From positions 198,723 to 262,722 of the forward strand of contig PSMU01000001.1 of the NCBI GenBank assembly GCA_040290255.1: a stretch of 64,000 bases of DNA, written 5' to 3'. The position numbers and the translations under genes were made by a program. The notes under the pieces are model-generated. The model saw only the letters and a list, made by a program, of their open reading frames with translations. It did not search any database and was not told the DNA's origin. Every line of letters begins with the position of its first letter. The stretch's first letter is position 1. The stretch comes from Nitrososphaerota archaeon (GTDB taxonomy: Archaea; Thermoproteota; Nitrososphaeria; PSMU01). This document shows, piece after piece, positions 23,688 to 56,843 of this stretch.

Positions 23688-23740
23688 GCCGCGAGGGGGG
23701 CCTATAAACTTAAAGCCTGGGGCCTGCGACCCGCGCCAGC

Positions 23741-24130
23741 TTGGGGGCCCGGGCCTTTCTCTCCCGCTTCATGGAGAGGCTGAGGAGCAGGCCTAGGGGA
23801 CATGGCGCCGCGGCCCTACTCCCGCTGCTGCTCTATCTGGCGGCGCTGGCCCTCTTCAGCGCGGGGCTGCTCAACGTCCTGCTCGAGGGAGCGACGCTGC
23901 CGAGGGATGTGATCATCTACGGCGGGCGAGAGCGGCAGACCATCTACGAGCTCTTCATGCTCATGGGCGTCTACATAGTAGGCGCCACGGGCCTCTACGC
24001 CTGGGTGCTCGCGGGGAGAAGGGGGATGCAGGAGAGGATCGCGAGGATGTACTTTATGGTCGGCCTGCTGGGCCTCCTGCTGGCCTTCGCGATGGGCTAC
24101 TATATCCTGGTGCGCAAGGGCTACTTCTAG
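23741..24130 (+). CDS. small integral membrane protein (three predicted TM helices)
   Basis: 129 aa with three hydrophobic segments; no family recognised. Confidence 0.5.
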   Translation: MGARAFLSRFMERLRSRPRGHGAAALLPLLLYLAALALFSAGLLNVLLEGATLPRDVIIYGGRERQTIYELFMLMGVYIVGATGLYAWVLAGRRGMQERIARMYFMVGLLGLLLAFAMGYYILVRKGYF

Positions 24131-29500: not shown

Positions 29501-29546
29501 CGCCCTTACACGGCGTTGGTCGCCGGTTCAAATCCGGCCTGGCCCA
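29473..29546 (+). tRNA. tRNA-Val (TAC), intron-less
   Basis: Acceptor GGGCCAG / CTGGCCC, anticodon arm ACGCC-CTTACAC-GGCGT, T-arm GCCGG-TTCAAAT-CCGGC; 74 nt; CCA not encoded. Confidence 0.8.
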
Positions 29547-29551
29547 CCCGC

Positions 29552-44118: not shown

Positions 44119-45587
44119 TGCCGATCCTCTCCGCGCTGATCCTGCTGCCGCTGCTGGGGGCCCCGATAGGCTATGCGCTCTTCAGGCTTAACAGGCGCGC
44201 CGGCCTTGCCTTCTGCCTCTCGGTCACGGCCGCCACGCTGGCGCTCTCGCTGGCAGCCTATGCCCTGGTGGCCCTGCGCCCCTCCCCTCCCGGAGCCTAT
44301 GCGCTGGTGGAGCGCTACAGCTGGGTCTCCCTGCCCGACTTCTCATTCGATCTGCTGCTCGGTCTGGATGGGCTGGGCGCGGTCCTGCTGGTGCTCTCCT
44401 CCCTCCTTACGCTTCTGGCGATGGCCGGCTCCCCCGCGCTCATCAGAGAAAGGGAGGGCGAGTACTACTCGCTGATGCTGCTCTTCGAGGGGGCGATAAA
44501 CGGCGTGTTCAGTTCCCTGAACCTGATCTTCTTCTATATCTTCTGGGACCTGGTGCTGATCCCCATGTTCCTCTTCATAGGCATCTGGGGCGGGCCGCGG
44601 CGCAAGTATGCGGCCCTCAAGTTCCTGCTGTACACCTTCACGGGAAGCGTGGTCATGCTCACCGGCTTCCTGATCGCCTACTTTGGCTCGCCCGTGCGCT
44701 CCTTCAACCTGCCCGAGCTCATGGGCCACGTGCCGGCTACGCTGCAGCTGTATTCGTTGCTCGCGGCCTTCATAGGCTTCGGGATAAAGCTGCCCGTCTT
44801 CCCCTTCCACAGCTGGCTGCCCGATGCGCACGTGGAGGCGCCCGCGCCCATCAGCGTGCTCTTGGCTGGGGTGCTGCTCAAGATGGGCGGCTACGGCTTC
44901 ATAAGGATAGGCCTTCAGCTCTTTCCCGAGGCCTCAAGGCAGCTCGCCTGGCTCTTCATGGCCGTTGGGCTGGCCACGATGTTCTACGGGGCCATCGTGG
45001 CGCTCCTCTCATCGGACCTCAAGAGGATGATCGCGCTCACGAGCATCAACCACATGGGCTTCGTGCTCCTGGGCGCCTATGCCGCCATAGCCTCCGGCGC
45101 CGCCCTGGGCCTGCAGGGGGCCATCTTTCAGATGTTCAACCACGGCCTGGCCATAGGCTCCCTCTTCTTGCTCTCGGGCTATATACATGAGCAGGCGGGG
45201 ACTAGGGAGATCAGCCGGCTGGGCGGGCTAAGGTATGCCATGCCGCGCACCGCGGCGCTCCTGATGCTCAGCAGCCTGGCGGGCATGGGCTTCCCCCTCT
45301 TCTCGAGCTTCCTAAGCGAATTCATGGTCATCGCGGGTGCCGTGGCGGGCTACAGGGCCTACTCGGTGGCCGTGCTGGTGCCCGTCATCACGGGGGCCTA
45401 CTTTATGTGGATGCTGAGGCGCACGGTGCTCAGCGAAAGGAACGAAGCGCTGCCGGCGCACGACCTGCCGACGCGTGAGGCGCTGCTGCTCCTGGCCTTC
45501 CTGCTGCCCCTCACGCTGCTCCTCTTCATGCCCTCGCTCATCCTCTCGCCGCTGCAGCCCTTGGTGGAGAGCGTTATGGGGCCATGA
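44115..45587 (+). CDS. nuoM: complex I-like subunit M (NuoM)
   Basis: FHSWLPDAHVEAPAPISVLLAGVLLKMGGYG. Confidence 0.85.
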   Translation: MMPILSALILLPLLGAPIGYALFRLNRRAGLAFCLSVTAATLALSLAAYALVALRPSPPGAYALVERYSWVSLPDFSFDLLLGLDGLGAVLLVLSSLLTLLAMAGSPALIREREGEYYSLMLLFEGAINGVFSSLNLIFFYIFWDLVLIPMFLFIGIWGGPRRKYAALKFLLYTFTGSVVMLTGFLIAYFGSPVRSFNLPELMGHVPATLQLYSLLAAFIGFGIKLPVFPFHSWLPDAHVEAPAPISVLLAGVLLKMGGYGFIRIGLQLFPEASRQLAWLFMAVGLATMFYGAIVALLSSDLKRMIALTSINHMGFVLLGAYAAIASGAALGLQGAIFQMFNHGLAIGSLFLLSGYIHEQAGTREISRLGGLRYAMPRTAALLMLSSLAGMGFPLFSSFLSEFMVIAGAVAGYRAYSVAVLVPVITGAYFMWMLRRTVLSERNEALPAHDLPTREALLLLAFLLPLTLLLFMPSLILSPLQPLVESVMGP

Positions 45588-47035
45588 ACCCGCTCTACAT
45601 CATCGCGGTCCTGCTGGTGGCCTCGCTCGCTACCGTGCTGCTGCAACTGCTGGGCGCCGGGCGGCGGGGGGCGGCGGTGCCGCTGTTGGGCCTTACGTTC
45701 GCGGTGGGCGCAACGCTACAGGGCCTCTTGGGCGGGGGGAGCGGCGTGGGCCCCCTGGCCGCGGACGGGCTGGGCTTCTTCTTCGCGCTGGTGGGCAGCT
45801 TCGTGGGCCTCTCAGCGCTAGTCGCCAGCCTGGAATACCTGAGGGGGGATGAGAATGAGCTGCTCTTCTACAGCCTCCTGCTCGCCTCGGTGGGGGGCCT
45901 TGTCGCGCTCTCCTTCGCCAGGGACCTGCTGACGCTCTTCGTCTCATGGGAGCTGATGGGCATCCCCACCTTCGCGATGGCCGCCTTCAACAAGAAGAGC
46001 GAGGCCTCGCTGGAGGCGGGCCTGAAGTACTTCTTCGTGGGCGCCCTCTCGACCGGGCTGCTCGCCTATGGGATCTCGCTGGCCTATCTGCTCACGGGCT
46101 CACTGGACCTCGCCGGGGTGGCCGCGGGCTTCTCATCGCTCAGCGCCCAGCAGCTCCCCCTGGCGGCCGCGGCCGCGGGCCTCCTGGCGGCGGGCTTCGG
46201 GTTCAAGATGGCCTTCGTCCCCTTTCATATCTGGATCCCCGATGCCTATCAGGGCGCGCCCACGACGCTCTCGGCCTACCTTTCCGCGGCCACCAAGAAG
46301 GCCGGCTTCGTCGCCGCCATAAGGGTGCTGCTCATCTCCCTCGCCCTTCAGCCCCTGCTGAGGCTCGGCTGGGCCGAGCTCTTCGCCGCCCTCTCGCTGC
46401 TCACGATGACCTTCGCCAACCTGGCCGCCCTGACCCAGAGGAGCCTCACGAGGCTGCTCGCTTACTCCAGCATCGCCCAGGCGGGATATATACTGCTGGG
46501 CCTGGCCGTGACGGGGCCCGCCTCGGCCTTCGCGCTCAGCTCCGCTCTCTTTCACGTGCTGAACCACGCGATCCTCTCGGGCCTCTCCTTCATAGCCGCC
46601 GCCTCGTACCTGAAGGGCCTGGGCACGGACGACCTGGATGCCCTGGCGGGCAGCGGGGCAAGGACTCCCTGGACCTCGGTGAGCCTGGCCATCGCGCTGC
46701 TGGGCCTCGCGGGCCTGCCGCCCATTAACGGCTTCTGGAGCAAGCTCTTCATCTTCTCGGCCTCGGTGCAGGCGGGCGGCGTCTACTGGTGGGGCCCCTA
46801 CCTGGCCCTGGCCGGCTTCCTGAACAGCGCGCTGAGCCTGGGCTACTACGGCTGGGTGATTCGCAGGCTCTTCTTCGATGAGCCCGCCGGAGAGGGAGGA
46901 AACGAGCCCAGGCTGCTGGCCCTGCTCTGTGCCGCCCTGGCCGCGCTGGCGCTGCTGATAGGCCTCCTGCCGGGGCCCTTCGCGCGCCTGCTCTACGATG
47001 TAGCTTCCTCCTTCTTGGCCAGCGGCGGGACCTAG
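45584..47035 (+). CDS. nuoN: complex I-like subunit N (NuoN)
   Basis: FHIWIPDAYQGAPTTLSAYLSAATKKAG. Confidence 0.85.
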   Translation: MNPLYIIAVLLVASLATVLLQLLGAGRRGAAVPLLGLTFAVGATLQGLLGGGSGVGPLAADGLGFFFALVGSFVGLSALVASLEYLRGDENELLFYSLLLASVGGLVALSFARDLLTLFVSWELMGIPTFAMAAFNKKSEASLEAGLKYFFVGALSTGLLAYGISLAYLLTGSLDLAGVAAGFSSLSAQQLPLAAAAAGLLAAGFGFKMAFVPFHIWIPDAYQGAPTTLSAYLSAATKKAGFVAAIRVLLISLALQPLLRLGWAELFAALSLLTMTFANLAALTQRSLTRLLAYSSIAQAGYILLGLAVTGPASAFALSSALFHVLNHAILSGLSFIAAASYLKGLGTDDLDALAGSGARTPWTSVSLAIALLGLAGLPPINGFWSKLFIFSASVQAGGVYWWGPYLALAGFLNSALSLGYYGWVIRRLFFDEPAGEGGNEPRLLALLCAALAALALLIGLLPGPFARLLYDVASSFLASGGT

Positions 47036-47304
47036 AGCGGCAGGAGGAGCAGCGCCACCAGGGCCACCGAGAGGGCTGAGAGCAGCGAGAGGCCTATGAG
47101 CGCCCTCCAGAAGGCCGAGGGGCTGGGCACGCCGCCCTTAAGCAGGGCCCCGGGCAGGAAGATCAGGCCGAGCAGCATTATGTATAGCGAGAGCGCCTCC
47201 AGCCCCGCATATCTGTACATGCCTGGGTAGAAGAACATGAGCAAGAGGCCCGAAAAGCCCAGGAGGATCATGCCGACCGAGGCGTAAAGCAGCCCCTTGT
47301 CCAC
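47032..47304 (-). CDS. small hydrophobic membrane protein (~90 aa)
   Basis: C-terminal part of track ORF 47032..47493 has two or three TM segments; GTG 47304 or ATG 47271 lies downstream of TATAAG boxes; upstream part is Arg/Gly-rich. Confidence 0.3.
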   Translation of the reverse strand: MDKGLLYASVGMILLGFSGLLLMFFYPGMYRYAGLEALSLYIMLLGLIFLPGALLKGGVPSPSAFWRALIGLSLLSALSVALVALLLLPL

Positions 47305-47373
47305 GCCGCGCGCTCCTCCCCTCCTTGCTATAAGTCTATAAGAGAGCCGGCCCCGCGCAGGGCGAGGCCTGGG
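47305..47373. promoter_or_regulatory. divergent promoter with tandem TATAAG elements
   Basis: gctataagtctataagagagcc between the small membrane protein gene and ctaB. Confidence 0.35.
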
Positions 47374-48255
47374 ATGCTGGAGGGGAGCCAAGGGGGCGCG
47401 GCCAGGGCCTATGCCTCCCTCGCAAAGCCGGGCATCATCTCGCTCCTGGTCTTCACCGCCCTCGCGAGCAGCTTCGTGGCCTCCTGGCCCCACCTGAGCC
47501 CCCTCCCGCTCCTGGCCCTCGCCCTCGCGGGGGCCCTGAGCTCCGGGGGCTGCATGGCCATCAATGACTATGTGGACCGGGAAAGGGATAGGCGGGTGCC
47601 CTGGCTGCAGAAGAGGCGGCCGCTCCCGGCGGGCCTCCTGAAGCCCGACCGGGCGCTCTACTTTGGCCTCGCGCTGCTGGGCATGGGCCTAATCACGGCC
47701 TTCGCCCTCCTCCCGCTGCCCTCCGCGCTCTTCGTGCTGGCGGGGGCCGTGATCTACCTGCCGCTGTACACGCTTTACCTGAAGCCCAGGCACTGGTCGA
47801 ACATAGTGATAGGAGGCGCGGCGGGCAGCATGGCCTCGCTGGCCGGCTGGGCGCTCTCCTCGCCGCTGGATCTGCGCGCGCTTTCGCTCGCGCTGCTCGT
47901 CTTCCTCTGGACGCCCGGCCACTTCTGGAGCCTCTCGCTGGCCTTCAGGGGGGACTATGCGCGGGCCGGGATACCCATGCTAACGGACCTGCTTACGGAG
48001 AGGGGCGCGGCGCTGGTGGTCTTCGCCAACGTGGCGCTGACGGTGGCCGCCTCGCTCGCGCTCTTCTTCTGGTGGACCACGGCCGTATATCTGGTCCCGG
48101 CCGCCCTCTTCGGGGCCCTCGTGCTGCTCAGGGCCCGGGCGCTGCTCTCCGAGAACAGCAGGGCCGCGCGCCTCAGGGCCTTCAGGTATGCTACGCTTCA
48201 TCTTTACGTGCTCTGGTTCCTGCTCATCTTGGATAAGGTCGCGAACTTTATCTAG
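47374..48255 (+). CDS. ctaB: protoheme IX farnesyltransferase (heme O synthase), UbiA family
   Basis: NDYVDRERDRRVPWLQKRRPLPAG and RGDYARAGIPML motifs. Confidence 0.85.
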   Translation: MLEGSQGGAARAYASLAKPGIISLLVFTALASSFVASWPHLSPLPLLALALAGALSSGGCMAINDYVDRERDRRVPWLQKRRPLPAGLLKPDRALYFGLALLGMGLITAFALLPLPSALFVLAGAVIYLPLYTLYLKPRHWSNIVIGGAAGSMASLAGWALSSPLDLRALSLALLVFLWTPGHFWSLSLAFRGDYARAGIPMLTDLLTERGAALVVFANVALTVAASLALFFWWTTAVYLVPAALFGALVLLRARALLSENSRAARLRAFRYATLHLYVLWFLLILDKVANFI

Positions 48256-48276
48256 AGGAGGCGATGAGGCCGTGGC

Positions 48277-48756
48277 ATGGCCCTCCAAGAGGGAGACCTG
48301 GCCCCCGACTTCGAGCTGCCCGATGAGCGGGGGAGGCCCATAAGGCTCTCCTCCTTCAGGGGGAGGAAGGTCGTGCTCTACTTCTATCCCAAGGATGACA
48401 CGCCGGGGTGCACGAAGGAGGCCTGCGCCTTCAGGGACCGCCTGCCGCTCCTTGAGGCGAGGGGGGCCCTCGTGCTGGGCGTGAGCACGGATGATGAGGC
48501 ATCCCATGCCCGCTTCAAGGACAAGTACTCGCTGCCCTTTCCGCTGCTCGCCGACAAGGAGGCCAAGGTCTCGAGGCTCTATGGCGTTTACAAGCTCAGG
48601 AGCTTCGGGGGCAGGAGCTTCTGGGGCATAGAGCGCACGACCTTCATCATAGATGAGAACGGAAGGATAGCGAAGGTCTTCCCAAGGGTGAACGTGGACG
48701 GGCACGTGGAGGAGGTGCTGGCCGCGCTAGGGGCCACAAATGAGCAGCCCTTATGA
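48277..48756 (+). CDS. bcp: peroxiredoxin (Bcp-type thiol peroxidase)
   Basis: [11 protein letters not shown] ... [23 protein letters not shown]. Confidence 0.9.
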
Positions 48757-48925
48757 AGAGTATCTGGAGCGGAGGATAAAGGAAAGGGAGGCCCTGCTGG
48801 ACGGCCCCGAGAGCTCGGTGGGAAGGGCCAGAAGGCAGGAGCTGGAGAAGGAGCTGGCCTTCCTCAAGGCAGAGCTGGAGCGTTATAGGAAGGGCCTGAA
48901 GGCGCTGAGGAGGGAGGAGGGATAG
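48740..48925 (+). CDS. small predicted coiled-coil protein (61 aa)
   Basis: Charged heptad-like sequence ([15 protein letters not shown] ... [23 protein letters not shown]); could also be non-coding. Confidence 0.25.
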
Positions 48926-48928
48926 CCC

Positions 48929-49732
48929 GTGGCGCGGGCCGCGCCGTATACGCCCAGGACCTACTTCGTTTACCCGCCAGGGCCGCGGGGCCCGCTGCAC
49001 TGCACCATCCTGCCCAAGCTCTCTGAGCGGCAGCTCTCGGCGCTGCTGGTCTTATTGGAGAGCAGGGGGCTCAGGTGTGAGCGCCTGGGTCCCGATGTGG
49101 CGCGCGTGAGAAAGGAGGGGCTTTGGTTTAGGCTGGAGCGCTCGGGCATCATGACGGGGTCCGTGGACCCCCTGGAGGCCCTACCCGAGCTCTTCGCGCT
49201 GCTGGGGCGCCTGGCCAAGAGGTGGCGGCCCAGGCCCGAAGCGAAGGGCCCCTTTAGCTCTTGGCGCAACGCCTACCTAAGGCTTCTTCTCTCGGGCCCC
49301 AGGGGCAGGATCGTGCTGAGCCCAAGGCTAGAGGCCCCAGGGGCAGGCTGGAGCAAGAATAGGGAGCGCCACGCCTGCCTGCTGCTGCCCGATGAGCTGC
49401 TGGTGCTGGCCTTCGCCATCAGGGCGGCGAAGCCCAGGGGCGTTGAGCTGCTCAGCCACAGGCCCTTCGCCCGGGCCAGGCCCCTATCGCTCGCTGGCCG
49501 GCTCTACTTCCTCATTAGGTTGAGCGCGGGCCAGGCGCGCCGCTGGCTTGAGCGGCAGGCGCTACACTACCCTGAGGAGGCAAGGCCCCAGCTGCTCCTG
49601 GGCCCCGACCTCTCGCTCCTGCTCTTCTCGCCCAGGCCGTTTGCGCTGACGGGGCGGGGGCTGAGGGGGCTCTGGTACCTTCTGGGCCGCTGGTGCCTGG
49701 ATCCGCAGGCGCTTGCGGGCGAGCTCTCGTAG
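48929..49732 (+). CDS. hypothetical protein (Arg-rich, 267 aa)
   Basis: Longest ORF in an otherwise unassigned 0.8 kb; no family recognised; coding status uncertain in this GC-rich context. Confidence 0.35.
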   Translation: MARAAPYTPRTYFVYPPGPRGPLHCTILPKLSERQLSALLVLLESRGLRCERLGPDVARVRKEGLWFRLERSGIMTGSVDPLEALPELFALLGRLAKRWRPRPEAKGPFSSWRNAYLRLLLSGPRGRIVLSPRLEAPGAGWSKNRERHACLLLPDELLVLAFAIRAAKPRGVELLSHRPFARARPLSLAGRLYFLIRLSAGQARRWLERQALHYPEEARPQLLLGPDLSLLLFSPRPFALTGRGLRGLWYLLGRWCLDPQALAGELS

Positions 49733-49746
49733 CCATCAACAGGACG

Positions 49747-49839
49747 TGCTCCGGGCGGGAGTTCCATGGCGCGCCACTTTGAACCCGCGATCTGCGGCTC
49801 GAAAGGCCGCTATGCTTGACCGGGCTACACCACCGGAGC
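49747..49839 (-). tRNA. tRNA-Glu (TTC) with a ~17 nt insertion (putative intron) in the T-loop
   Basis: Minus strand: GCTCCGG-TG-GTGT-AGCCCGGTCAA-GCAT-A-GCGGC-CTTTCGA-GCCGC-AGATC-GCGGG-TTCAAA[gtggcgcgccatggaac]T-CCCGC-CCGGAGC-A; exons resemble archaeal tRNA-Glu. Confidence 0.6.
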
Positions 49840-49917
49840 GGTGGCACGGGCGTCGCGAGGGCTTAAAAGCGTTAAGGCCTGGCGCAAACGAAATAAGAGC
49901 CCCCGCCCACCAAGGGC

Positions 49918-50019
49918 GGGCCCGTAGCTCAGCCTGGCAGAGCGACCGGCTCATAGCCTGCTGGGAGACCGGTCGGTCGTGGGATCGAAAGGCCTAGCTC
50001 GAGGAGCCCACCGGGCCCA
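49918..50019 (+). tRNA. tRNA with CAT anticodon (elongator Met or Ile2), 12 nt canonical-position intron plus ~16 nt T-arm insertion
   Basis: GGGCCCG-TA-GCTC-AGCCTGGCA-GAGC-G-ACCGG-CTCATA[gcctgctgggag]A-CCGGT-CGGTC-GTGGG-(23 nt)-CCCAC-CGGGCCC-A; T-loop residue 54 would be A in any splice model; 3' end overlaps the stop region of the convergent CDS. Confidence 0.5.
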
Positions 50020-51661
50020 CCTTCTTGAGCTCCTCCTCCAGCGCCGCGAGCTGCCGCTCGCCCCGCCTTAGGCCCGCCTCGAGCTCCCTCCTGAAGGCCT
50101 CGCCCCTTATGAGGCCCTGGCCTCCCCTCCTGAGCAGGGAGATCAGGTCCCTGATGGCCTTCTCCTCCTGGCGCTCCTGGGCCAGCGCCGCCCTGTAGCC
50201 CTTTAGCTCCGGCATCGCCCCCAGGGCCTCCCTGAGCTCCTCGAGCCTCCTCAGCAGCGCCTCACGCCTGGGAGCCAGCTGGGAGTAGAGCTCCAGCAGC
50301 TCGGGGGCCGGGGCGCCCTTGGCCGAGGAGCTAGCCAGCGCGGTGAGGAGCCCACGGTCGAGCTTGGCGCGCTCCTTTAGCAGCGAGAGCAGGAGCTCGG
50401 CCCTTCTCAGGGGGCTCTCCTCCCTTATCACGCGGCCCAGGGCCAGGTGGATGCCCCAGAGGGCCACCAGGATGAGCGCCCAGAGCCCCTGCAGCTGAGA
50501 GGCGGGCGAGGCCAAGCCGGGCTGCAGGAGCAGCGGCGCCGTCTCCATAACGGCGAGCGGCGAGAGCCCCTGTAGCGAGAGGCCCGCGGAGCGCGAGGCC
50601 CAGGCCGGGGCTACGGCCAACGTGAAGTTATCGACGATGCCCTGCACGGGGCTAAAGGCCAGCCCCTTGGCGCTAAAGCCCCAGGGCGTGGGCGTGAAGA
50701 GCGAGGGCGAGTAATAGTGGAGGGTCAGCCGCTCGCTGCTGCCCGGCGCTATGCTTCTGCCCAGCGCTGCCAGGTCCAGCTCCCCCTGGGTGAGCGAGGC
50801 GGAGGCCGAGGAGCCGGGGATGGGGCCCGGGGGCGCCGGCAGGTAAAGCGTCGCCACGTCCGGCGGGAGGTTAAGAGGGAGGCTGGTGAGCGTGGTCCCG
50901 CCGAGGTTTTGGATCAGGATCACATCCTCGATGAAGGGCTGCGCGGTGCCGTTGAGCTGCACCTTCCTTATCACCTCAGGAAAGCGCAGCGCGCTCAGGC
51001 GCGCGCCGCTTCCCAGCTGCAGCGTAAGGTTGTAGAGCCTGGGCTCAAGGAGCCTCGCGGCCCCCGTTGAGTTCGAGTACACGCTGCCCGAGGGCAGCTG
51101 GCTCACCTTCGTGAAGTTGACGCCGAGCGCGCTCACGCCCTGGGGCAGGGCCAGGGAGAGCGTAAAGTTCCTCAGCTCCAGGCCCGGGGAGAGGGAGGGC
51201 AGCGGCAGCGCTAGGCTCATGTTCTGCCCGCCCAGGGGGCGCAGCAGCCCCCCTGCCCCCCTAAGGAAGAAGCTCAGGCTCACGGACTCATTGGCCGAGG
51301 GGGGGAGCAGCCCCGGCCCCGGCCGAAGCGCTATGGGGCCCCCCGCTTGGGCGCTCACGTTAACGGGCACGGGCCCTCGCACGCTGAACGACCAGCTCAG
51401 GGGGCCGGGCGGCAGGGCGGCGCTGAAGGCCTCAGGAAGGCGCAGCTCCAGCGAGGGAATGGGGGCGGACGCGTTCGAGGGGGCCAGAAAGGCCATCGTC
51501 ACGTTCAGGCGCACGAAGCCGGTGGGCAGCACCTGGTAGGCCAGGGTGAGCGAGACGCCGGGTTCGCCGCCCTGGGCGGAGGCGGGGGCCAGCAGCGCGA
51601 GGAGCAGCAGCAAGGAAAGGAGGGGAGAGCAGCGGGCCACGCCGCCCCTTTGCGCCCTCAT
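49994..51661 (-). CDS. membrane-anchored extracellular glycoprotein with cytoplasmic coiled-coil tail
   Basis: Signal peptide (LLSLLLLLALLAPASA), at least ten N-x-S/T sequons in a ~390 aa ectodomain, one TM helix (LWALILVALWGIHLAL), ~150 aa charged helical C-terminus. Confidence 0.65.
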   Translation of the reverse strand: MRAQRGGVARCSPLLSLLLLLALLAPASAQGGEPGVSLTLAYQVLPTGFVRLNVTMAFLAPSNASAPIPSLELRLPEAFSAALPPGPLSWSFSVRGPVPVNVSAQAGGPIALRPGPGLLPPSANESVSLSFFLRGAGGLLRPLGGQNMSLALPLPSLSPGLELRNFTLSLALPQGVSALGVNFTKVSQLPSGSVYSNSTGAARLLEPRLYNLTLQLGSGARLSALRFPEVIRKVQLNGTAQPFIEDVILIQNLGGTTLTSLPLNLPPDVATLYLPAPPGPIPGSSASASLTQGELDLAALGRSIAPGSSERLTLHYYSPSLFTPTPWGFSAKGLAFSPVQGIVDNFTLAVAPAWASRSAGLSLQGLSPLAVMETAPLLLQPGLASPASQLQGLWALILVALWGIHLALGRVIREESPLRRAELLLSLLKERAKLDRGLLTALASSSAKGAPAPELLELYSQLAPRREALLRRLEELREALGAMPELKGYRAALAQERQEEKAIRDLISLLRRGGQGLIRGEAFRRELEAGLRRGERQLAALEEELKKVGPVGSSS

Positions 51662-51668
51662 AATTAAG

Positions 51669-53180
51669 CTAGCCCTCCGCCTTGGGCTCGAGGGCCCTGA
51701 GCTGCCTCCAGGTGACGCAGAGCGTGAGCGGGTGCGAGGCCCTCACCTCATCCACCCTTTGGGCCGCGGCGTTATGAGGGGCCCTGCGAAGGGTTGAGGC
51801 CCTCTCCTTACAGGCGGCGATCAGGGCCTCCGCGAAGGCGTCCAGCTCCTCCTTTGTGGCCGACTCCGTGGGCTCTATCATGAGGGCCTCCTCCACGATC
51901 TGCGGGAAGTACACGGTGGGCGCGTGGTGGCCGTAGTCCAGCAGCCTCTTGGCCAGGTCCCAGGCCCTGACCCCCCTCTTCCTGAGCCTGGCGCTGGGCG
52001 CTATTACGAACTCGTGCTTCCTGTGCTTCTCGGGCCTGTAGGGAAGCTCGAAGTAGCCGGACCGAAGCAGCCTCCTGAGCAGGTAGTTGGAGTGCAGGAC
52101 CGAGAGCTCGGCGACCCTCCTTAGCCCCGCCGCGCCCAGCGATAGGATATACGCATAGGCCCTGACGAGCACGGGGATCTGGCCGTAAAAGGCCCTCGCC
52201 CTCCCTATGCTCAGCGGCCGATCGTAATCCAGGAAGTAGCGCCTCCCGTCGAAGGCTATCAGAGGCGCGGGCAGATAGGGCTCGAGCTGGGCGCTCACCC
52301 CTAGGGGCCCCGCGCCAGGCCCCCCTCCTCCATGAGGGGTCGAGAAGGTCTTGTGCAGGTTCACGTGCACGATATCGAAGCCCATGTCGGCCGGGCGGGC
52401 GATGCCCAGGAGGCTGTTAAGGTTCGCCCCATCGTAATAAAGCAGCCCGCCCGCCTCATGTATTATATCGGCTATCTCCGAGATCCTCCGCTCGAAGATC
52501 CCCAACGTGTTCGGGTTCGTGAGCATGAGCCCCGCCGTCCTGGGGCCCACGGCCGCCTTCAGGGCCTCCACGTCCACGCAGCCCTCCTCATCCGAGCGAA
52601 TGACCCTGACCCTGAACCCCGCGAGGCTCGCGCTCGCGAAGTTCGAGCCGTGCGCGCTATCGGGCACCAGGACCTCCTGCCTCTCCTCTCCCCTCCTCCT
52701 GAAGAAGGCCCTCATGATGCTCACGCCGCAGAACTCGCCGCTGGAGCCCGCGGGGGGCTGGAGCGAGAAGCGCGCCATGCCCGTGATCTCGCACAGCATC
52801 TGCTCCAGCTCATAAAGGAGCGCCAGCAGCCCCTGCACGCTCTCCTCCGCCTGATAGGGGTGAAGCTCCCGCAGCGCCTCCAGCGCTGCCAGCGCATCGT
52901 TCACCTTCGGGTTGTACTTCATCGTGCAGCTGCCGAGCGGGTAGAAGCCTAGGTCGACGCCGTAGCTCTGCTGGGAGAGGCGCGTGAAGTGGCGCACGAC
53001 CTCGTGCTGGCTCAGGGAGGGGAGAGGAAGCTCCTCCCGCCTCAGCCCCGAGAGCTCCCGCTCGACCCCCTTGAGCGCCTCGCGCTCCTGAGGCGTGAGC
53101 TCCGGCAGCAGGAGGCCTATCTTGCCCGTGCCGCTGCGCTCGATCAGCAGGGGCTCCTCCCAGCGGGCCTGCCTAAACAT
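51669..53180 (-). CDS. gcvPB: glycine dehydrogenase (decarboxylating) subunit 2
   Basis: GcvPB pattern; start trimmed to ATG 53180, which overlaps the gcvPA stop. Confidence 0.9.
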   Translation of the reverse strand: MFRQARWEEPLLIERSGTGKIGLLLPELTPQEREALKGVERELSGLRREELPLPSLSQHEVVRHFTRLSQQSYGVDLGFYPLGSCTMKYNPKVNDALAALEALRELHPYQAEESVQGLLALLYELEQMLCEITGMARFSLQPPAGSSGEFCGVSIMRAFFRRRGEERQEVLVPDSAHGSNFASASLAGFRVRVIRSDEEGCVDVEALKAAVGPRTAGLMLTNPNTLGIFERRISEIADIIHEAGGLLYYDGANLNSLLGIARPADMGFDIVHVNLHKTFSTPHGGGGPGAGPLGVSAQLEPYLPAPLIAFDGRRYFLDYDRPLSIGRARAFYGQIPVLVRAYAYILSLGAAGLRRVAELSVLHSNYLLRRLLRSGYFELPYRPEKHRKHEFVIAPSARLRKRGVRAWDLAKRLLDYGHHAPTVYFPQIVEEALMIEPTESATKEELDAFAEALIAACKERASTLRRAPHNAAAQRVDEVRASHPLTLCVTWRQLRALEPKAEG

Positions 53181-54555
53181 GGCGCAGCGCCCCCTCGAGG
53201 GCCTTGCAGAGCTCATCTATGTCCTGCACCTCATGCACCTCCGTGACGCAGAAGAGGCCGGCCTCGCCCAGCTCGGGGTACAGGTGCGCCAGCGGGAGCC
53301 CCGCCTCGAAGCCCGCCTCGTTCAGCGTACGCCTCACCCGCGCGGCGCTGCCGCGCTCATATCCCACAGCGAAGTCCTTGAAGTGGGGAGCGCGAAAGAG
53401 CGGCGCCCTGAGCCCCTCGATGCCGGCCATCCGGCCCAACGCATAGGAGGTCCTGGCGAGGATGAGCTCGGCTAACCTGCGCAGCCCCTCCCTTCCCAGC
53501 AGGGCCAGGTAGGCCGCGGCGGCTATGGCGTAGAGGGCCTGGTTGGTCGTGATGTTCGAGGTGGCCCTCTCGCGCCTAATGTGCTGCTCCCTGGCCTGCA
53601 GGACGAGCGTGAAGGCGCGCCGACCCCCTGCATCCAGCGTGGCGCCCACGATCCTGCCCGGCATCTGCCTGAGCAGCTCCTGGCCGCGGCAGGCCATAAG
53701 GCCGAGCAGCGCGCCGCCGTAGTACATGCCCAGCCCCAGGGGTTGCCCCTCGCCCACGGCGATGTCGGCCCCCAGCTCGCCGGGGGGCTTCAGCAGCGCC
53801 AGCGAGAGCGGCTCGAAGCCCATCACGTAAAGCGCCCCCCTGGCATGGGCGAGCTCGCCCACTTCGCGCGGGTTCCTCGCGATGAACCCCAGAAAGCTGG
53901 GGCTCTCCAGGTAGACGAAGGCCGTATCGGCATCGAGCTTAGAGGCCAGGTCCTCCAGGTCCGCGGCGCCATCGGCCCGCCATCCGTACTCGTGCACGCT
54001 CATGCCCAGGGGCTCCGCATAGAGCTCGAGCACCCGCCTCCTCTCGGGCCCCATATAGCGGGGCACGAGGGCCTTCCTGCGCCTGGTGTGCCTATAGGCC
54101 ATGCGCGCCGCCTCCCCCAGCGCGGAGGCCCAGTCGTACAGCGAGGAGTTAGCGTACTCCATGCCCGTGAGCTCGCAGATCAGGCTCTGGTACTCGAAGA
54201 GCGCCTGAAGCAGGCCCTGGCTCACCTCCGCCTGATAGGGCGTGTAGGAGGTGAGAAATTCGCCCCTGGCGATGATCTGCTCCACCACGGCGGGCACGTA
54301 GTGCGGCCAGCAGCCCGCGCCCAGGAAGAGCCTGCGCCCAAATGCCCTTGTCCCCTTTAATCGGTCCTCGACCCTTCTCCTAACCTCCAGCTCGCTCAGC
54401 GGGCCCGGCAGGGCCAGGGGCCTCCTGAGCCTGACGCGCTCCGGTATATCTTGGAAGAGCTGCTCGAGCGAGCGGAGCCCCAGCTCGCGTAGCATGAGCT
54501 CCACCAGCTTCGGGTCGGAGGTGGGGAGGTAGGGATGGAGGAACTCGCGCTCCAC
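53173..54555 (-). CDS. gcvPA: glycine dehydrogenase (decarboxylating) subunit 1
   Basis: MEREFLHPYLPTSDPKLVELMLRELGL ... FLTSYTPYQAEVSQG. Confidence 0.9.
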   Translation of the reverse strand: MEREFLHPYLPTSDPKLVELMLRELGLRSLEQLFQDIPERVRLRRPLALPGPLSELEVRRRVEDRLKGTRAFGRRLFLGAGCWPHYVPAVVEQIIARGEFLTSYTPYQAEVSQGLLQALFEYQSLICELTGMEYANSSLYDWASALGEAARMAYRHTRRRKALVPRYMGPERRRVLELYAEPLGMSVHEYGWRADGAADLEDLASKLDADTAFVYLESPSFLGFIARNPREVGELAHARGALYVMGFEPLSLALLKPPGELGADIAVGEGQPLGLGMYYGGALLGLMACRGQELLRQMPGRIVGATLDAGGRRAFTLVLQAREQHIRRERATSNITTNQALYAIAAAAYLALLGREGLRRLAELILARTSYALGRMAGIEGLRAPLFRAPHFKDFAVGYERGSAARVRRTLNEAGFEAGLPLAHLYPELGEAGLFCVTEVHEVQDIDELCKALEGALRHV

Positions 54556-54609: not shown

Positions 54610-55905
54610 TTGCCCAGGGTCTGGGTGGAGAGCTACGGGTGCAGCGCCAACTTGGCCGACGCCGAGATCATGATGGGCCTGCTGCGCGAAAGGGGCTATG
54701 AGCTGGCCTCGAGCCCCGCCGAGGCGGACCTGAACATGATCGTGACCTGCAGCGTGAAGAACGCCACCGCGAGCCGCATGATTACCCGCATCAACGAGCT
54801 CACACGCACCCGCCGGCCCCTGATCGTCGCCGGCTGCCTGGCCAAGGCGGAGCCCGAGCTCGTGGCCAGGCTCAATCCCAGGGCCTCGCTGCTCGGCCCC
54901 AGGACGGTGCAGCGCGTGGGCGAGGTGGCCGACCTCACGAGGGCGGGCTATAAGGTAGTGGCGCTCGAGGCGCTCGCCGAGCCCAAGGTCTGCCTGCCGA
55001 GGGTCAGGACCAACCCCGTCGTGGCCATCGTCGAGATCTTGAGCGGGTGCCTGAGCAGGTGCAGCTTCTGCCAGACCAAGCTGGCCCGGGGCGACCTCGT
55101 CAGCTACTCGCCCGAGCTGATCGTCAGGGAGGTGGAGATGGCCGTGAGGGAGGGATGCAGGGAGATCTGGCTGACCTCCCAGGATAACTCGTGCTATGGC
55201 AGGGACATCGGCACGAACCTAGCGGAGCTCCTCGAAAGGGTCTGCCGCGTGGAGGGCGACTTCATGGTGAGGGTAGGCATGATGAACCCCCTTCATCTGA
55301 GGCGCTTTCTGGGCGAGCTGATAGAGGCCTTTAAGCACGATAAGGTCTACAAGTTCCTACATCTCCCCGTGCAGACGGGCAGCGACCGCCTGCTCAGGCT
55401 CATGAGGAGGGGCTATACGGTCGATGAGTTTCGCGAGTATGTCAGGGCCTTTAGGAGGGAGATACCGCAGATCACGCTGGCCACCGACATCATCGCCGGC
55501 TTCCCCACCGAGGCCGAGGAGGACGTAGCGCTGACGGTCGAGCTGCTGGAGGAGGTGCAGCCCGACGTGGTCAACCTCTCCTCCTACTCGGCCAGGCCCC
55601 ACACGGACGCGGCGCTGCTGCCCCAGCTGCCCAGGGAGGAGGTGAAGAGGAGGACCCGGTTCCTGGCCGAGGTCGCGGGCCGCGTGATGCTGGAGAGAAA
55701 TAGGAGGTGGCTGGGATGGCGGGGCAGGGCGCTCGTGGAGGAGAGGGTTGAGGGGGCCTTCGTGGCGAGGAATTTTGCGTACAGGCCCATCATCGTCAAG
55801 GCGGAAGCTGCCCTGGGCCAAGAGGTGGAGGTGAGCATAGCGCGCGTCACGGCCCACTGCCTTTATGATGAAGGGGCCGCTTCGGGCACTGGTGAAATTA
55901 ATTAG
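54610..55905 (+). CDS. mtaB: tRNA methylthiotransferase (MiaB/MtaB family radical-SAM enzyme)
   Basis: N-terminal MTTase cysteines, radical-SAM CLSRCSFCQTK, C-terminal TRAM-like region. Confidence 0.85.
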   Translation: MPRVWVESYGCSANLADAEIMMGLLRERGYELASSPAEADLNMIVTCSVKNATASRMITRINELTRTRRPLIVAGCLAKAEPELVARLNPRASLLGPRTVQRVGEVADLTRAGYKVVALEALAEPKVCLPRVRTNPVVAIVEILSGCLSRCSFCQTKLARGDLVSYSPELIVREVEMAVREGCREIWLTSQDNSCYGRDIGTNLAELLERVCRVEGDFMVRVGMMNPLHLRRFLGELIEAFKHDKVYKFLHLPVQTGSDRLLRLMRRGYTVDEFREYVRAFRREIPQITLATDIIAGFPTEAEEDVALTVELLEEVQPDVVNLSSYSARPHTDAALLPQLPREEVKRRTRFLAEVAGRVMLERNRRWLGWRGRALVEERVEGAFVARNFAYRPIIVKAEAALGQEVEVSIARVTAHCLYDEGAASGTGEIN

Positions 55906-55973: not shown

Positions 55974-56843
55974 ATGGCTGATGCTGAGCTTGGGCTGATG
56001 GCCGTCGGCGAGCTGGCGACCCGCGCGGCCGACCGGCTGGGAAGCGATTCATACCCGGTCATGAGGGGGCTGCCCCAGCTGAGCGCCTGGGGCCAAAGCC
56101 CGGCGCAGCTGCGCCGCGGGCTTCTTTCTAGGAGGGAGGAGATAGTCCGGGGCCTTTCCGAGTTCAGGAGGGTGGTGCTGCTGGCCGACCTGAGCTCCAC
56201 GCTGGGCGCCTCGCTCACGCCCTCGCTCGTGGGCCTGCTGGAGGGCAGGCTCAGGGGGGCGTGGGTGGTGCTGCCGGGGCCCCGGGAGGGGATGAGGACC
56301 TTCCTGGCCGGCACGGCCTTGGGCCGGCTGCTGGCCCAGGGCGCGCCCATCCTCGTGACGGAGAGGGCGAACCTGATGGACGGCTTCTGGTCCTCCCCGG
56401 CGGAGGTTGCCCTGGAGCACCTGACGGCCCGCATGGCACACATCGTCAAGGAGGTGTCGCTGCCCTACCTGATGGCCCAGCAGCGCGGCACCTTCCTGAT
56501 GGTAGTAGGCTCCTCCCAGGAGCCCGAGGAGGCCCTGGCGAACTTGGCGCTGAAGGTGCAGGGCTCGGCGAGCTCGGGCGCGGAGGGCATCGTGCTGGCC
56601 CCCGGCGATAAATCGCTGGCCGCGCTGGAGGCGCTCGTGCAGGAGGCCCAGGCGGTGCTTAGGGTTTCGCTGAGCTATAAGCTGGCCAAGCTCGAGGAGA
56701 CGATCGCGGTGCTCGTCTGTCCGCTGGAGGCCCAGGCGGTGCTTAGGACCTATGACCCCCTGAGCGGGCTGAAGCAGCTGGACGATGAGCCCAGCGTGGC
56801 GTTACCGGAGGAGGCGGAGCTGGGGCTCCCCTATGTTCCCTAG
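55974..56843 (+). CDS. hypothetical protein; possible highly degenerate FtsZ/tubulin-fold protein
   Basis: 289 aa; segment order resembles FtsZ by eye (LGLMAVGELATRAADRLG ... VVLLADLSSTLGASLTP ... GTFLMVVGSSQ) but the GGGTG(S/T)G GTP loop is absent; promoter ccttataagcc ~35 nt upstream. Confidence 0.5.
   Translation: MADAELGLMAVGELATRAADRLGSDSYPVMRGLPQLSAWGQSPAQLRRGLLSRREEIVRGLSEFRRVVLLADLSSTLGASLTPSLVGLLEGRLRGAWVVLPGPREGMRTFLAGTALGRLLAQGAPILVTERANLMDGFWSSPAEVALEHLTARMAHIVKEVSLPYLMAQQRGTFLMVVGSSQEPEEALANLALKVQGSASSGAEGIVLAPGDKSLAALEALVQEAQAVLRVSLSYKLAKLEETIAVLVCPLEAQAVLRTYDPLSGLKQLDDEPSVALPEEAELGLPYVP

What the first reader, a model, noticed from the sequence alone, without database searches (positions are those of the whole stretch)
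49918..50019. CAT-anticodon tRNA with a canonical intron plus a T-arm insertion, overlapping a CDS 3' end
The 5' half is a textbook tRNA with a 12 nt intron between positions 37 and 38. The 3' half has perfectly complementary T-stem and acceptor strands, but 23 nt lie between the T-stem strands, and any splice choice leaves A rather than T at position 54. Its last 26 nt are antisense to the final 8 codons of the glycoprotein gene. Identity (elongator Met versus Ile2) cannot be decided from sequence.
Basis: partly seen in the sequence, partly recalled or inferred. Interest (0 to 1): 0.5.

Follow-up and report, generated by a model that had tools for sequence, protein, structure and literature searches.

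The report
Archaeal tRNA gene with two introns
This is a genuine archaeal tRNA gene (anticodon CAU, most likely the isoleucine tRNA that reads AUA) interrupted by two short enzyme-spliced introns, one next to the anticodon and one in the T-loop; that arrangement is ordinary for this group of archaea, and the only unusual points are an A instead of U at T-loop position 54 and a conserved tail-to-tail overlap with a protein gene.

Summary
Window 49918-50019 (+) is a 102-nt pre-tRNA(CAU). It has a 12-nt intron at 37/38 (49956-49967) and a 16-nt insertion in the T-loop.

The insertion is a second bulge-helix-bulge intron at 59/60 (49990-50005), a documented non-canonical position.
- A sister species (56% identical neighbouring protein) carries the same gene with 0/74 exon changes and 8/28 intron changes.
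- Only a 59/60 splice gives the same mature T-loop, ATCGAAG, in both species.
- Four loci from AT-rich Nitrososphaerota (three distinct genes) encode exactly ATCGAAG with no T-loop intron.
- The divergent neighbour, tRNA-Glu(UUC) at 49747-49839 (-), has a 17-nt 59/60 intron.

A54 is therefore real and conserved. It comes with A58 and G60, the combination reported for eukaryotic initiator tRNA and metazoan tRNA-Ala(AGC).

The tRNA is not an initiator. Its stem determinants match the isoleucine set rather than the methionine set, so tRNA-Ile2 is favoured (about 0.75) over elongator Met.

The 26-nt antisense overlap with the 555-aa glycoprotein-like ORF is conserved, with the ORF's stop codon inside the T-loop intron.

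The source is probably Ca. Australarchaeum erebusense (Mt Erebus). Verdict: a new member of a known kind; modest interest.

The parts
49918..50019 (+). pre-tRNA(CAU) gene, 102 nt (74-nt mature body; CCA not encoded)
   Evidence: 100% identical in 5 metagenome contigs; orthologue in L067
49918..49955 (+). exon 1 (positions 1-37): acceptor 5' strand, D-arm, anticodon stem 5' strand, loop CTCATA; anticodon CAT at 49952-49954
   Evidence: identical 38-nt 5' half in 58 genome loci
49956..49967 (+). intron 1, 12 nt, canonical 37/38 (GCCTGCTGGGAG). Central helix C32-U33-C34-A35 pairs with UGGG. The 3-nt bulges are U36-A37-G and A-G-A38. There is no inner helix, so this is a relaxed hBH/loop form.
   Evidence: direct reading. 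Sister species L067 differs only at intron nt 2-5, which form the loop. Orthologous introns end in CTG(G/A)GAG.
49968..49989 (+). exon 2 (positions 38-59): A38, anticodon stem 3' strand, variable loop CGGTC, T-stem 5' strand GTGGG, T-loop A54 U55 C56 G57 A58 A59
49990..50005 (+). intron 2, 16 nt, non-canonical 59/60 (AGGCCTAGCTCGAGGA). Central helix U55-A, C56-G, G57-C plus an A54.G mismatch. Bulges are A58-A59-A and G-A-G60. Inner hairpin GGC/CUA/GCU.
   Evidence: All 4 T-loop-region substitutions against L067 fall inside it. Only 59/60 gives the same product in both species. That product, ATCGAAG, equals the intron-less orthologue T-loop.
50006..50019 (+). exon 3 (positions 60-73): G60, T-stem 3' strand CCCAC, acceptor 3' strand CGGGCCC, discriminator A73
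49994..51661 (-). 555-aa ORF with a signal peptide, many N-x-S/T sequons, one TM helix and a coiled-coil tail; no Pfam hit on record. Its last 8 codons plus the stop overlap the tRNA antisense, and the stop codon (49994-49996) lies in the hairpin loop of intron 2.
   Evidence: The homologue P0002 has the same length, and its stop is at the same place in L067.
49747..49839 (-). divergent partner: pre-tRNA-Glu(UUC), 93 nt, with a 17-nt intron at 59/60 (49761-49777); anticodon at 49801-49803
   Evidence: Intron-less orthologues in L006, L064 and L066 have the T-loop TTCAAAT. Sister species L068 keeps a 19-nt intron with identical exons.
49891..49897 (+). AAATAAG, a TATA-like box about 24-27 nt upstream of the tRNA(CAU) start. 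A mirror element, CTTAAAAGC at 49862-49870, lies about 23-31 nt upstream of tRNA-Glu.
   Evidence: direct reading; promoter function is inferred and not tested

Best explanation
Window 49918-50019 is a functional archaeal tRNA gene, transcribed as a 102-nt precursor with two protein-spliced (bulge-helix-bulge) introns.

Inferred pathway:
1. The archaeal splicing endonuclease cuts in the 3-nt bulges flanking a 4-bp helix. It does this once at 37/38 (12-nt intron) and once at 59/60 in the T-loop (16-nt intron).
2. The exons are ligated, in archaea normally by RtcB, and CCA is added.
3. The product is a 74-nt tRNA: GGGCCCGUAGCUCAGCCUGGCAGAGCGACCGGCUCAUAACCGGUCGGUCGUGGGAUCGAAGCCCACCGGGCCCA.
4. Its T-loop, AUCGAAG, would close with an A54-A58 purine-purine pair and a purine at position 60, in place of the usual U54-A58 with a pyrimidine at 60.

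The tRNA is most likely tRNA-Ile2. In that case C34 would be converted to agmatidine by TiaS, so that the tRNA is charged by IleRS and reads AUA.

Shown here: the gene, the cloverleaf, exon conservation against intron divergence, the position of the 59/60 splice, and conservation of A54.
Inferred: splicing itself, the modification, and the amino-acid identity.

Probabilities: real two-intron tRNA about 0.95; Ile2 rather than elongator Met about 0.75.
For: Gene and cloverleaf:
- In-silico spliced forms are called tRNA(cat).
- The mature form folds as a cloverleaf with z = -3.3.

Exons conserved, introns free to vary:
- Against the orthologue in L067 there are 0/74 exon and 8/28 intron differences (Fisher p = 1.4e-5). 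The adjacent protein is only 56% identical.
- Of the splice choices that leave a 7-nt loop, only 59/60 gives one product, ATCGAAG, in both species.
- Registers that would give a 9-nt loop lose a pair in L067, while the 59/60 register gains G-C from G.U.
- Intron-less orthologues encode ATCGAAG directly in L006/L043, L064 and L065/L066, in loci of 34-45% GC.
- T-stem pairs covary in 4 of 5 positions across 14 orthologues.

Context:
- The neighbouring tRNA-Glu has a 59/60 intron with a textbook hBHBh' motif, conserved in the sister species L068.
- 59/60 introns and multi-intron tRNAs are documented in Crenarchaeota, Thaumarchaeota and Caldiarchaeum, together with alpha2beta2 endonucleases.

Identity:
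- Not an initiator: G1-C72, C11-G24 and C29-G41.
- The Ile determinant set A73, C4-G69, U12-A23, C29-G41, A37, A38 is all present. The Met set C3-G70, U4-A69, A5-U68 is absent.
- G3-C70, C4-G69 and C5-G68 are the pairs used by bacterial TilS enzymes.
- The best E. coli hits are CAT-anticodon genes annotated tRNA-Ile. Identity is 72-77% to Ile2, 71% to Ile-GAU and 65% to Met.
- ATA makes up 27 of 85 Ile codons in seven nearby ORFs, so an AUA decoder is needed.
Against: - There is no RNA-level evidence of transcription or splicing.
- The T-loop BHB is imperfect: A54.G replaces the first pair of the 4-bp helix. The BHB folds are not the thermodynamic minima.
- Intron 1 lacks an inner helix.
- The identity determinants used were defined in E. 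coli; archaeal Ile and Met sets are blank in the review table.
- TiaS, EndA and RtcB could not be looked for, because only a 64-kb window was available.
- The other CAU tRNAs of this genome were not seen, so Ile2 against Met is not settled by exclusion.
- Only one intron-bearing orthologue was found.
Confidence: 0.78

Rival explanations
1. Same two-intron gene, but it is the elongator tRNA-Met rather than tRNA-Ile2. C34 would stay unmodified or receive ac4C/Cm, the tRNA would be charged by MetRS, and it would read AUG.
For: The anticodon is CAT, and A73 is shared by Met and Ile. The archaeal identity rules are not experimentally defined. ARAGORN labels it Met from the anticodon alone.
Against: The acceptor stem has C4-G69 and C5-G68, not the U4-A69 and A5-U68 of the Met set. 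C29-G41 and U12-A23 match the Ile set. It is nearer to annotated Ile2 and Ile-GAU than to Met in E. coli, even though it shares Met's anticodon.
Confidence: 0.18
2. A decaying tRNA pseudogene: the 16-nt T-loop insertion and A54 are lesions, the RNA is not spliced there, and a functional copy lies elsewhere.
For: A54 departs from the near-universal U54. The T-loop BHB has an A.G mismatch. Rfam scores the unspliced gene below threshold.
Against: All 74 exon positions are identical in a species whose flanking protein is 56% identical, while the introns differ at 8 of 28 positions. The T-loop ATCGAAG is kept in distant loci of 34-45% GC. The same intron type is present and conserved in the adjacent tRNA-Glu.
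Confidence: 0.03
3. The T-loop intron is cut in another register (central helix UCGA/UCGA, intron GGCCUAGCUCGAGG), leaving a 9-nt T-loop AUCGAAAAG.
For: In the window sequence this register has four Watson-Crick pairs between two 3-nt bulges. On paper that is a cleaner BHB than the 59/60 register (direct reading).
Against: In L067 the fourth pair, A-U, becomes A.C. The resulting loops would differ between the species (AUCGAAAAG against AUCGAAGCG). Intron-less orthologues have a 7-nt ATCGAAG.
Confidence: 0.03
4. No tRNA at all: the region is only the 3' end and 3' UTR of the convergent glycoprotein mRNA, and the tRNA-like fold is chance in GC-rich DNA.
For: GC-rich sequence gives many chance stem matches.
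Against: A custom scan found full cloverleaves at only three places in the window. The 38-nt 5' half is identical to tRNA(CAT) genes in 58 genome loci. Exon-specific conservation cannot be explained by the CDS, which overlaps only 26 nt.
Confidence: 0.01

Closest known systems
Multi-intron tRNA genes with non-canonical BHB introns in Thermoproteales, Thaumarchaeota and Ca. Caldiarchaeum subterraneum (Sugahara et al. 2008; Nunoura et al. 2011, PMC3082918; review PMC4090602; tRNAscan-SE 2.0, PMC8450103)
   Same: Short introns bounded by bulge-helix-bulge motifs. One lies at 37/38 and one at a listed non-canonical site (59/60, T-arm). The host lineage is Nitrososphaeria, where alpha2beta2 endonucleases with relaxed specificity are reported. 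Generic tRNA finders miss such genes.
   Different: No difference in kind. In detail, the central helix of the T-loop BHB starts with an A.G mismatch because position 54 is A. The intron's hairpin loop also carries the stop codon of an antisense protein gene.
Archaeal tRNA-Ile2 (CAU anticodon, agmatidine at C34 made by TiaS; Haloarcula marismortui, Archaeoglobus fulgidus)
   Same: CAU anticodon on an elongator-type body with an Ile-like acceptor stem (GGGCCC...), C29-G41, U12-A23, A37, A38 and A73. The genome uses ATA codons.
   Different: Membership was inferred, not tested: there is no TiaS, modification or charging data. The T-loop has A54/G60 in place of U54/Y60.
A54-A58 T-loops of eukaryotic initiator tRNA-Met (AUCGAAA) and metazoan tRNA-Ala(AGC) (PMC7912444, PMC7566577)
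   Same: A54 with A58 and a purine at 60. The loop AUCGAAG is 6/7 identical to the eukaryotic initiator loop (AUCGAAA quoted from my own knowledge; A54-A58 and the purine at 60).
   Different: This is an archaeal, elongator-type tRNA. [quoted passage not shown] The resemblance is structural, not evidence of common descent or of an initiator role.

Membership tests
Archaeal BHB-intron (multi-intron) tRNA gene | A canonical cloverleaf tRNA results after excision of the proposed introns | tested here: met
   ARAGORN calls tRNA(cat) on the spliced sequence. The MFE fold is a cloverleaf at -41.7 kcal/mol, z = -3.3. G18, G19, U55, C56 and A58 are present.
Archaeal BHB-intron (multi-intron) tRNA gene | Bulge-helix-bulge (or relaxed hBH/HBh') motif at each exon-intron junction, with cuts in two 3-nt bulges 4 bp apart | tested here: inconclusive
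   Intron 1: helix CUCA/UGGG with bulges UA|G and AG|A, but no inner helix. Intron 2: helix (A.G)UCG/CGA with bulges AA|A and GA|G and an inner 3-bp hairpin. Both are relaxed forms assessed by eye. They are not the MFE folds, and no BHB covariance model could be run. The adjacent tRNA-Glu intron has the full hBHBh' motif.
Archaeal BHB-intron (multi-intron) tRNA gene | Exons under selection and introns free to vary except at the BHB; intron-less orthologues match the predicted splice product | tested here: met
   0/74 exon against 8/28 intron differences from L067, p = 1.4e-5. Intron-less orthologues have the T-loop ATCGAAG.
Archaeal BHB-intron (multi-intron) tRNA gene | Intron position among those known (37/38, 59/60 and others) | tested here: met
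   37/38 and 59/60 are both listed in PMC4090602.
Archaeal BHB-intron (multi-intron) tRNA gene | Host encodes a splicing endonuclease of broad specificity and an RNA ligase; spliced RNA is observed | not testable with these tools
   Only a 64-kb window was available and there are no RNA data. The literature says Thaumarchaeota have alpha2beta2 enzymes.
tRNA-Ile2 (CAU, agmatidine) | CAU anticodon on an elongator body that lacks initiator marks (A1-U72, G29-31/C39-41, R11-Y24) | tested here: met
   G1-C72, C29-G41 and C11-G24.
tRNA-Ile2 (CAU, agmatidine) | Body carries isoleucine rather than methionine identity elements | tested here: met
   A73, C4-G69, U12-A23, C29-G41, A37 and A38 are present; G16 is absent. 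The Met elements C3-G70, U4-A69 and A5-U68 are absent. Caveat: these sets were defined in E. coli, although the Ile set is reported as conserved in the reconstructed archaeal ancestor.
tRNA-Ile2 (CAU, agmatidine) | Closer to annotated Ile/Ile2 genes than to Met genes | tested here: met
   The best E. coli matches are CAT-anticodon genes annotated tRNA-Ile. Identity is 72-77% to Ile2, 71% to Ile-GAU and 65% to Met. This is a cross-domain comparison, so the weight is weak.
tRNA-Ile2 (CAU, agmatidine) | TiaS encoded in the genome; agm2C34 present; charged with Ile | not testable with these tools
   No genome-wide access and no biochemical data.
Elongator tRNA-Met | Met acceptor-stem determinants (G2-C71, C3-G70, U4-A69, A5-U68 in bacteria) | tested here: not met
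   Only G2-C71 is present. Archaeal rules are unknown, so this lowers the reading but does not exclude it.
Initiator tRNA-Met | A1-U72 (archaea/eukarya) and three consecutive G-C pairs closing the anticodon stem | tested here: not met
   G1-C72; anticodon stem ACCGG/CCGGU. A54 alone does not make it an initiator.
A54-A58 / purine-60 T-loop class | A54, A58 and a purine at position 60 occurring together | tested here: met
   The loop AUCGAAG has A54, A58 and G60. Orthologues with U54 have U60 (TTCAAGT/TTCAAAT), so 54 and 60 change together.
A54-A58 / purine-60 T-loop class | Co-occurring R15/A48 pair (tRNA-Ala AGC type) | tested here: not met
   G15 and C48 are the standard pair.

The most novel reading that the evidence does not exclude
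The A54-A58/G60 T-loop is a conserved, clade-wide architecture of the AUA-decoding tRNA in part of the Nitrososphaeria. The papers I could search report this architecture only for eukaryotic initiator tRNA and metazoan tRNA-Ala(AGC). Here it would act as a functional mark: for example it could exclude U54 modification, or help TiaS, IleRS and MetRS tell tRNA-Ile2 from tRNA-Met. It would be an archaeal elongator counterpart of the 'initiator-type' T-loop. A secondary novelty is a conserved antisense overlap in which a protein gene's last codons are dictated by the tRNA and its stop codon sits in the loop of the tRNA's intron.
Probability: 0.15. Interest if true: 0.55.

Novelty: new member of a known kind. 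Interest (0 to 1): 0.3.

Why it matters
For annotation: this lineage is a deep-branching, probably new order of Nitrososphaeria from Mt Erebus. It hides at least two of its tRNAs from generic finders, because ARAGORN and Rfam both miss them. tRNA counts and completeness estimates need an intron-aware search, and the AUA decoder would otherwise appear to be missing.

For tRNA biology: the gene adds a conserved archaeal example of an A54/A58/R60 T-loop. Reviews treat U54 as universal outside eukaryotic initiators. The pre-tRNA also shows that a BHB with an A.G mismatch has been kept over evolutionary time.

The conserved overlap with a CDS is a neat case of a tRNA constraining a protein's C-terminus. 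None of this changes current understanding of archaeal tRNA splicing.

Tried and rejected
- ARAGORN at default and with intron options, and Rfam at gathering threshold: these found only tRNA-Val. Lowering ARAGORN's threshold gave 45 mostly spurious calls. The '-i' tRNA-Phe at 23640-23894 is a false positive.
- Thermodynamic folding of the intron-bearing arms: this does not return BHB motifs, so it cannot place the splice sites. Comparison with other species was used instead.
- Alternative T-loop splice registers: the UCGA/UCGA register (9-nt loop) and the MFE register U55-A/C56-G were rejected, because L067 breaks their pairs and intron-less orthologues have 7-nt loops.
- Metagenome scan for A54-type T-arms with 0-30 nt inserts: it found only three intron-less loci. 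The same scan in viral contigs, and a scan there for Ile-GAT with this acceptor stem, found nothing.
- Protein searches with the two flanking lineage-specific ORFs: each gave only one non-identical relative. The sister-species contigs end at or inside the tRNA pair, so only one orthologue of each intron could be compared.
- TiaS recognition rules and archaeal Ile2 reference sequences: the papers held gave no usable detail. Mandal 2010 and Marck & Grosjean 2002 are not held. The supplements of the Erebus and ancestral-tRNA papers are not held.
- The other CAU tRNAs of this genome could not be enumerated, and I could not look for TiaS, EndA or RtcB.

Full report
**1. Observation**

The sequence at 49918-50019 (+) reads as follows:

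GGGCCCG-TA-GCTC-AGCCTGGCA-GAGC-G-ACCGG-CTCATA-[GCCTGCTGGGAG]-A-CCGGT-CGGTC-GTGGG-ATCGAAAGGCCTAGCTCGAGGAG-CCCAC-CGGGCCC-A

- All four stems are perfectly complementary.
- The anticodon CAT is at 49952-49954.
- 12 nt separate positions 37 and 38, and 23 nt separate the two T-stem strands.
- ORF 49994-51661 (-) is 555 aa, with a signal peptide, many N-x-S/T sequons, one TM helix and a coiled-coil tail.
- The ORF ends with TAG at 49994-49996. The last 26 nt of the tRNA are therefore antisense to its stop codon and to the codons for (V)GPVGSSS.

Standard tools miss the gene. ARAGORN (default and with intron options) and Rfam at gathering score report only tRNA-Val at 29473-29548. Rfam in E-value mode gives a 15.2-bit partial tRNA match here, and a 21.1-bit match on the minus strand just upstream; the threshold is 29.

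**2. A second example next door**

The minus-strand match is a 93-nt pre-tRNA-Glu(UUC) at 49747-49839. It carries 17 extra nt in the T-loop: TTCAAA[GTGGCGCGCCATGGAAC]T, at 49761-49777.

That insertion forms a textbook hBHBh' motif at 59/60:
- The central helix is UUCA/UGGA.
- The bulges are AA|G and AC|U.
- The inner helix is UGGC/GCCA.

A custom scan for T-arm plus acceptor combinations, with or without T-loop inserts, found full cloverleaves only for Val, Glu and the CAU tRNA. T-loop insertions are therefore a property of this genome's tRNAs, not a lesion of one gene.

**3. Where the splice sites are**

Removing the 12-nt intron and any 16 nt from the T-loop gives a sequence that ARAGORN calls tRNA(cat) for 6 of 8 choices. 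Folding energy therefore cannot place the T-loop splice site, and the BHB folds are not the MFE structures. Comparison with other species settles it.

The five metagenome contigs that carry the identical glycoprotein are 100% identical over this region, so they say nothing. The glycoprotein has one more distant relative, P0002, at 56% identity and the same length. Its contig, L067, carries the orthologous 102-nt gene.

Comparison of the window gene with L067:

| Region | Differences | Where |
|---|---|---|
| Exons | 0 of 74 | none |
| Introns | 8 of 28 | see below |
| Fisher test | p = 1.4e-5 | |

- In intron 1 the four changes lie at nt 2-5, which form the loop. The 3' part, UGGGAG, is unchanged; it pairs with C32-A35 and forms the 3' bulge.
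- In the T-loop region the four changes all fall within 49990-50005.
- Of the splice choices that leave a 7-nt loop, only a 59/60 splice yields the same T-loop, AUCGAAG, in both species.
- One of the changes turns the G.U pair of the inner hairpin into G-C.
- The same changes break one pair in each of two rival registers. The first is UCGA/UCGA, which would leave a 9-nt loop. The second is the MFE register U55-A/C56-G.

Independent confirmation came from two scans:
- A scan of 185,579 species genomes with the 5'-half pattern returned 58 loci.
- A metagenome scan returned 3 more loci.
- L006/L043 (a Nitrososphaerales MAG), L064 and L065/L066 encode ...(A)TGGG-ATCGAAG-CCCA(T)... with no T-loop intron. 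That is exactly the predicted product.

Across 14 distinct orthologues the T-stem shows compensatory changes in 4 of 5 pairs. The other stems were fixed by the search pattern, so they are uninformative.

The intron-less tRNA-Glu genes next to the A54-type genes in L006, L064 and L066 have the T-loop TTCAAAT, which is the predicted Glu splice product. The sister species' Glu gene (L068) keeps a 19-nt intron with identical exons. Its inner helix is conserved and its loop differs, GC against CUUC.

**4. Mechanism**

Shown here:
- The gene is real and under purifying selection on the exons only.
- Its two insertions have the geometry of archaeal BHB introns: the cuts fall after the second nucleotide of two 3-nt bulges that lie 4 bp apart.
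- The introns lie at 37/38 and 59/60.

Inferred from established knowledge:
- Both positions are listed for archaeal tRNA introns.
- Multi-intron tRNAs, and alpha2beta2 endonucleases that accept relaxed BHB forms, are reported for Crenarchaeota, Thaumarchaeota and Ca. Caldiarchaeum (PMC4090602; PMC3082918; PMC8450103).
- The precursor would be cut by the splicing endonuclease and ligated, and CCA would be added. The gene encodes only CC-T after A73.

Both motifs are relaxed forms. Intron 1 has no inner helix. In intron 2 the first pair of the central helix is A54.G.

TATA-like boxes lie about 25 nt upstream of each of the two divergent tRNAs: AAATAAG at 49891-49897 and the complement of CTTAAAAGC at 49862-49870. 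These were read directly from the sequence, and promoter function was not tested.

**5. A54**

- The A at position 54 is genuine and conserved. It is present in the window, in the sister species, and in three distinct AT-rich relatives whose loci are 34-45% GC.
- It always occurs with G57, A58 and G60. Orthologues with U54 have U60 (TTCAAGT or TTCAAAT).
- Reviews describe U54 as universal apart from eukaryotic initiator tRNA, where A54-A58 forms a longer purine-purine pair (PMC7912444).
- A54/A58 in metazoan tRNA-Ala(AGC) likewise comes with a purine at 60, and that study did not see these pairs in bacterial or archaeal tRNAs (PMC7566577).
- I found no description of an archaeal elongator tRNA with this loop in the held library. 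That is not proof that none exists.
- The resemblance to the eukaryotic initiator loop AUCGAAA (quoted from my own knowledge) is structural only.

**6. Identity**

The tRNA is not an initiator: it has G1-C72, C11-G24 and an anticodon stem ACCGG/CCGGU.

| Evidence | Result |
|---|---|
| E. coli Ile determinant set (A73, C4-G69, U12-A23, C29-G41, A37, A38) | All present; of the D-loop elements G16 is absent (C16) |
| The same Ile set in the reconstructed archaeal ancestral tRNA-Ile | Reported as conserved |
| Met acceptor set (C3-G70, U4-A69, A5-U68) | Absent |
| Pairs used by bacterial TilS enzymes (3:70, 4:69, 5:68) | G3-C70, C4-G69 and C5-G68 all present |
| Best matches among 5,426 E. coli genomes | CAT-anticodon genes annotated tRNA-Ile |
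| Global identity to E. coli tRNAs | Ile2 72-77%, Ile-GAU 71%, Met 65% |
| ATA share of Ile codons in seven nearby ORFs | 27 of 85, so an AUA decoder is required |

All of this evidence is indirect and partly cross-domain. I put Ile2 at about 0.75 and elongator Met at about 0.2.

**7. Overlap with the CDS**

- In both species the glycoprotein ORF is 555 aa. Its stop codon (CTA on the + strand) sits in the 3-nt loop of the intron-2 hairpin.
- The C-terminal VGPVG is the antisense of the T-stem and acceptor 3' strands.
- The intron-encoded residues differ between the species, SSS against ASG.
- The overlap is therefore conserved, and the tRNA dictates the protein's tail. It is a curiosity, not a mechanism.

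**8. Source**

- The identical contigs come from SRR6519254 and SRR6519256 and from JGI 'ERB' assemblies. These are Tramway Ridge, Mt Erebus, metagenomes (PMC11657696).
- An identical flanking protein is deposited at NCBI as 'Nitrososphaerota archaeon'.
- That study reports two archaeal MAGs: Ca. Australarchaeum erebusense (a new order of Nitrososphaeria, 63.6% GC) and a Nitrososphaera (56.6% GC).
- The window is 66.4% GC, so it is probably Ca. Australarchaeum erebusense. This is an inference.

**9. Verdict**

This is a real two-intron archaeal tRNA gene, probably tRNA-Ile2: a new member of a well-described kind. The T-arm 'anomaly' is an ordinary 59/60 intron. Two things remain mildly unusual: the conserved A54/G60 T-loop, with its A.G mismatch in the BHB, and the conserved antisense overlap with a CDS.

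Noticed in passing
window 49747-49839 (-): A second hidden tRNA: pre-tRNA-Glu(UUC) with a 17-nt BHB intron at 59/60 (49761-49777), divergent from the CAU tRNA and 78 nt away. ARAGORN and Rfam miss it at default thresholds. The Glu/CAU divergent pair is also found in L006, L064 and L066, and the intron is conserved in the sister species L068.
   Followed up: yes
window 49902-49920 and 49885-49900: Inverted repeat CCCGCCC/GGGCGGG, the second arm of which includes the first 3 nt of the tRNA. On the minus strand it is followed by the T-rich CTCTTATTTCGTTT. This looks like a terminator for the convergent glycoprotein mRNA, whose 3' UTR would then be antisense to the whole tRNA gene. The same AT-rich element is the TATA-like box of the tRNA. 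Rfam gave weak chance-level hits here.
   Followed up: no
window 23640-23894 (-): ARAGORN with -i reports a tRNA-Phe with a 159-nt intron. The sequence has no tRNA features and is a false positive.
   Followed up: partly
window 45584-54555 (seven ORFs): ATA makes up 27 of 85 isoleucine codons and ATT only 6, in a 66% GC genome. This is an unusually heavy reliance on the AUA decoder.
   Followed up: partly
L065 about 36-153; L066 about 7121-7238: The orthologous A54-type tRNA(CAU) in an AT-rich relative has an additional 17-nt intron in the D-arm as well as the 37/38 intron, but none in the T-loop. Intron positions therefore differ between lineages for the same tRNA. In several Nitrososphaerales loci (L024, L048, L063) ARAGORN calls a tRNA-Asn(GTT) with a long insertion on the same locus. 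L065 and L066 have GTT-containing genes with insertions just downstream of the tRNA(CAU), which ARAGORN mislabels Trp and SeC. None of these intron assignments was checked.
   Followed up: partly
L009, L012, L014, L016 and 19 other bacterial loci: tRNA(CAT) genes of Chloroflexota and Acidobacteriota share the same 5' half as the archaeal gene (acceptor strand, D-stem, anticodon stem and CUCAUA loop, differing only in the D-loop), a striking cross-domain conservation of this tRNA body.
   Followed up: no
L067 (end of contig) and L068 (end of contig): Both sister-species contigs stop exactly at the 5' end of the tRNA(CAU) or inside the tRNA-Glu. This suggests an assembly break at the tRNA pair.
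   Followed up: no
window about 56840-58264 (-) and about 54625-55905 (+), mapped from L001: A methionyl-tRNA synthetase-like gene (tRNA-synt_1g) and a MiaB-like radical-SAM methylthiotransferase (UPF0004 plus Radical_SAM) lie within 8 kb of the tRNA pair, according to precomputed Pfam hits. No link to the tRNA was examined.
   Followed up: no
window 49994-51661 (-): The 555-aa glycoprotein-like ORF has no NCBI member with an identical sequence, although its neighbours do. The deposited annotation may therefore have treated this gene differently, perhaps because of the tRNA overlap.
   Followed up: no
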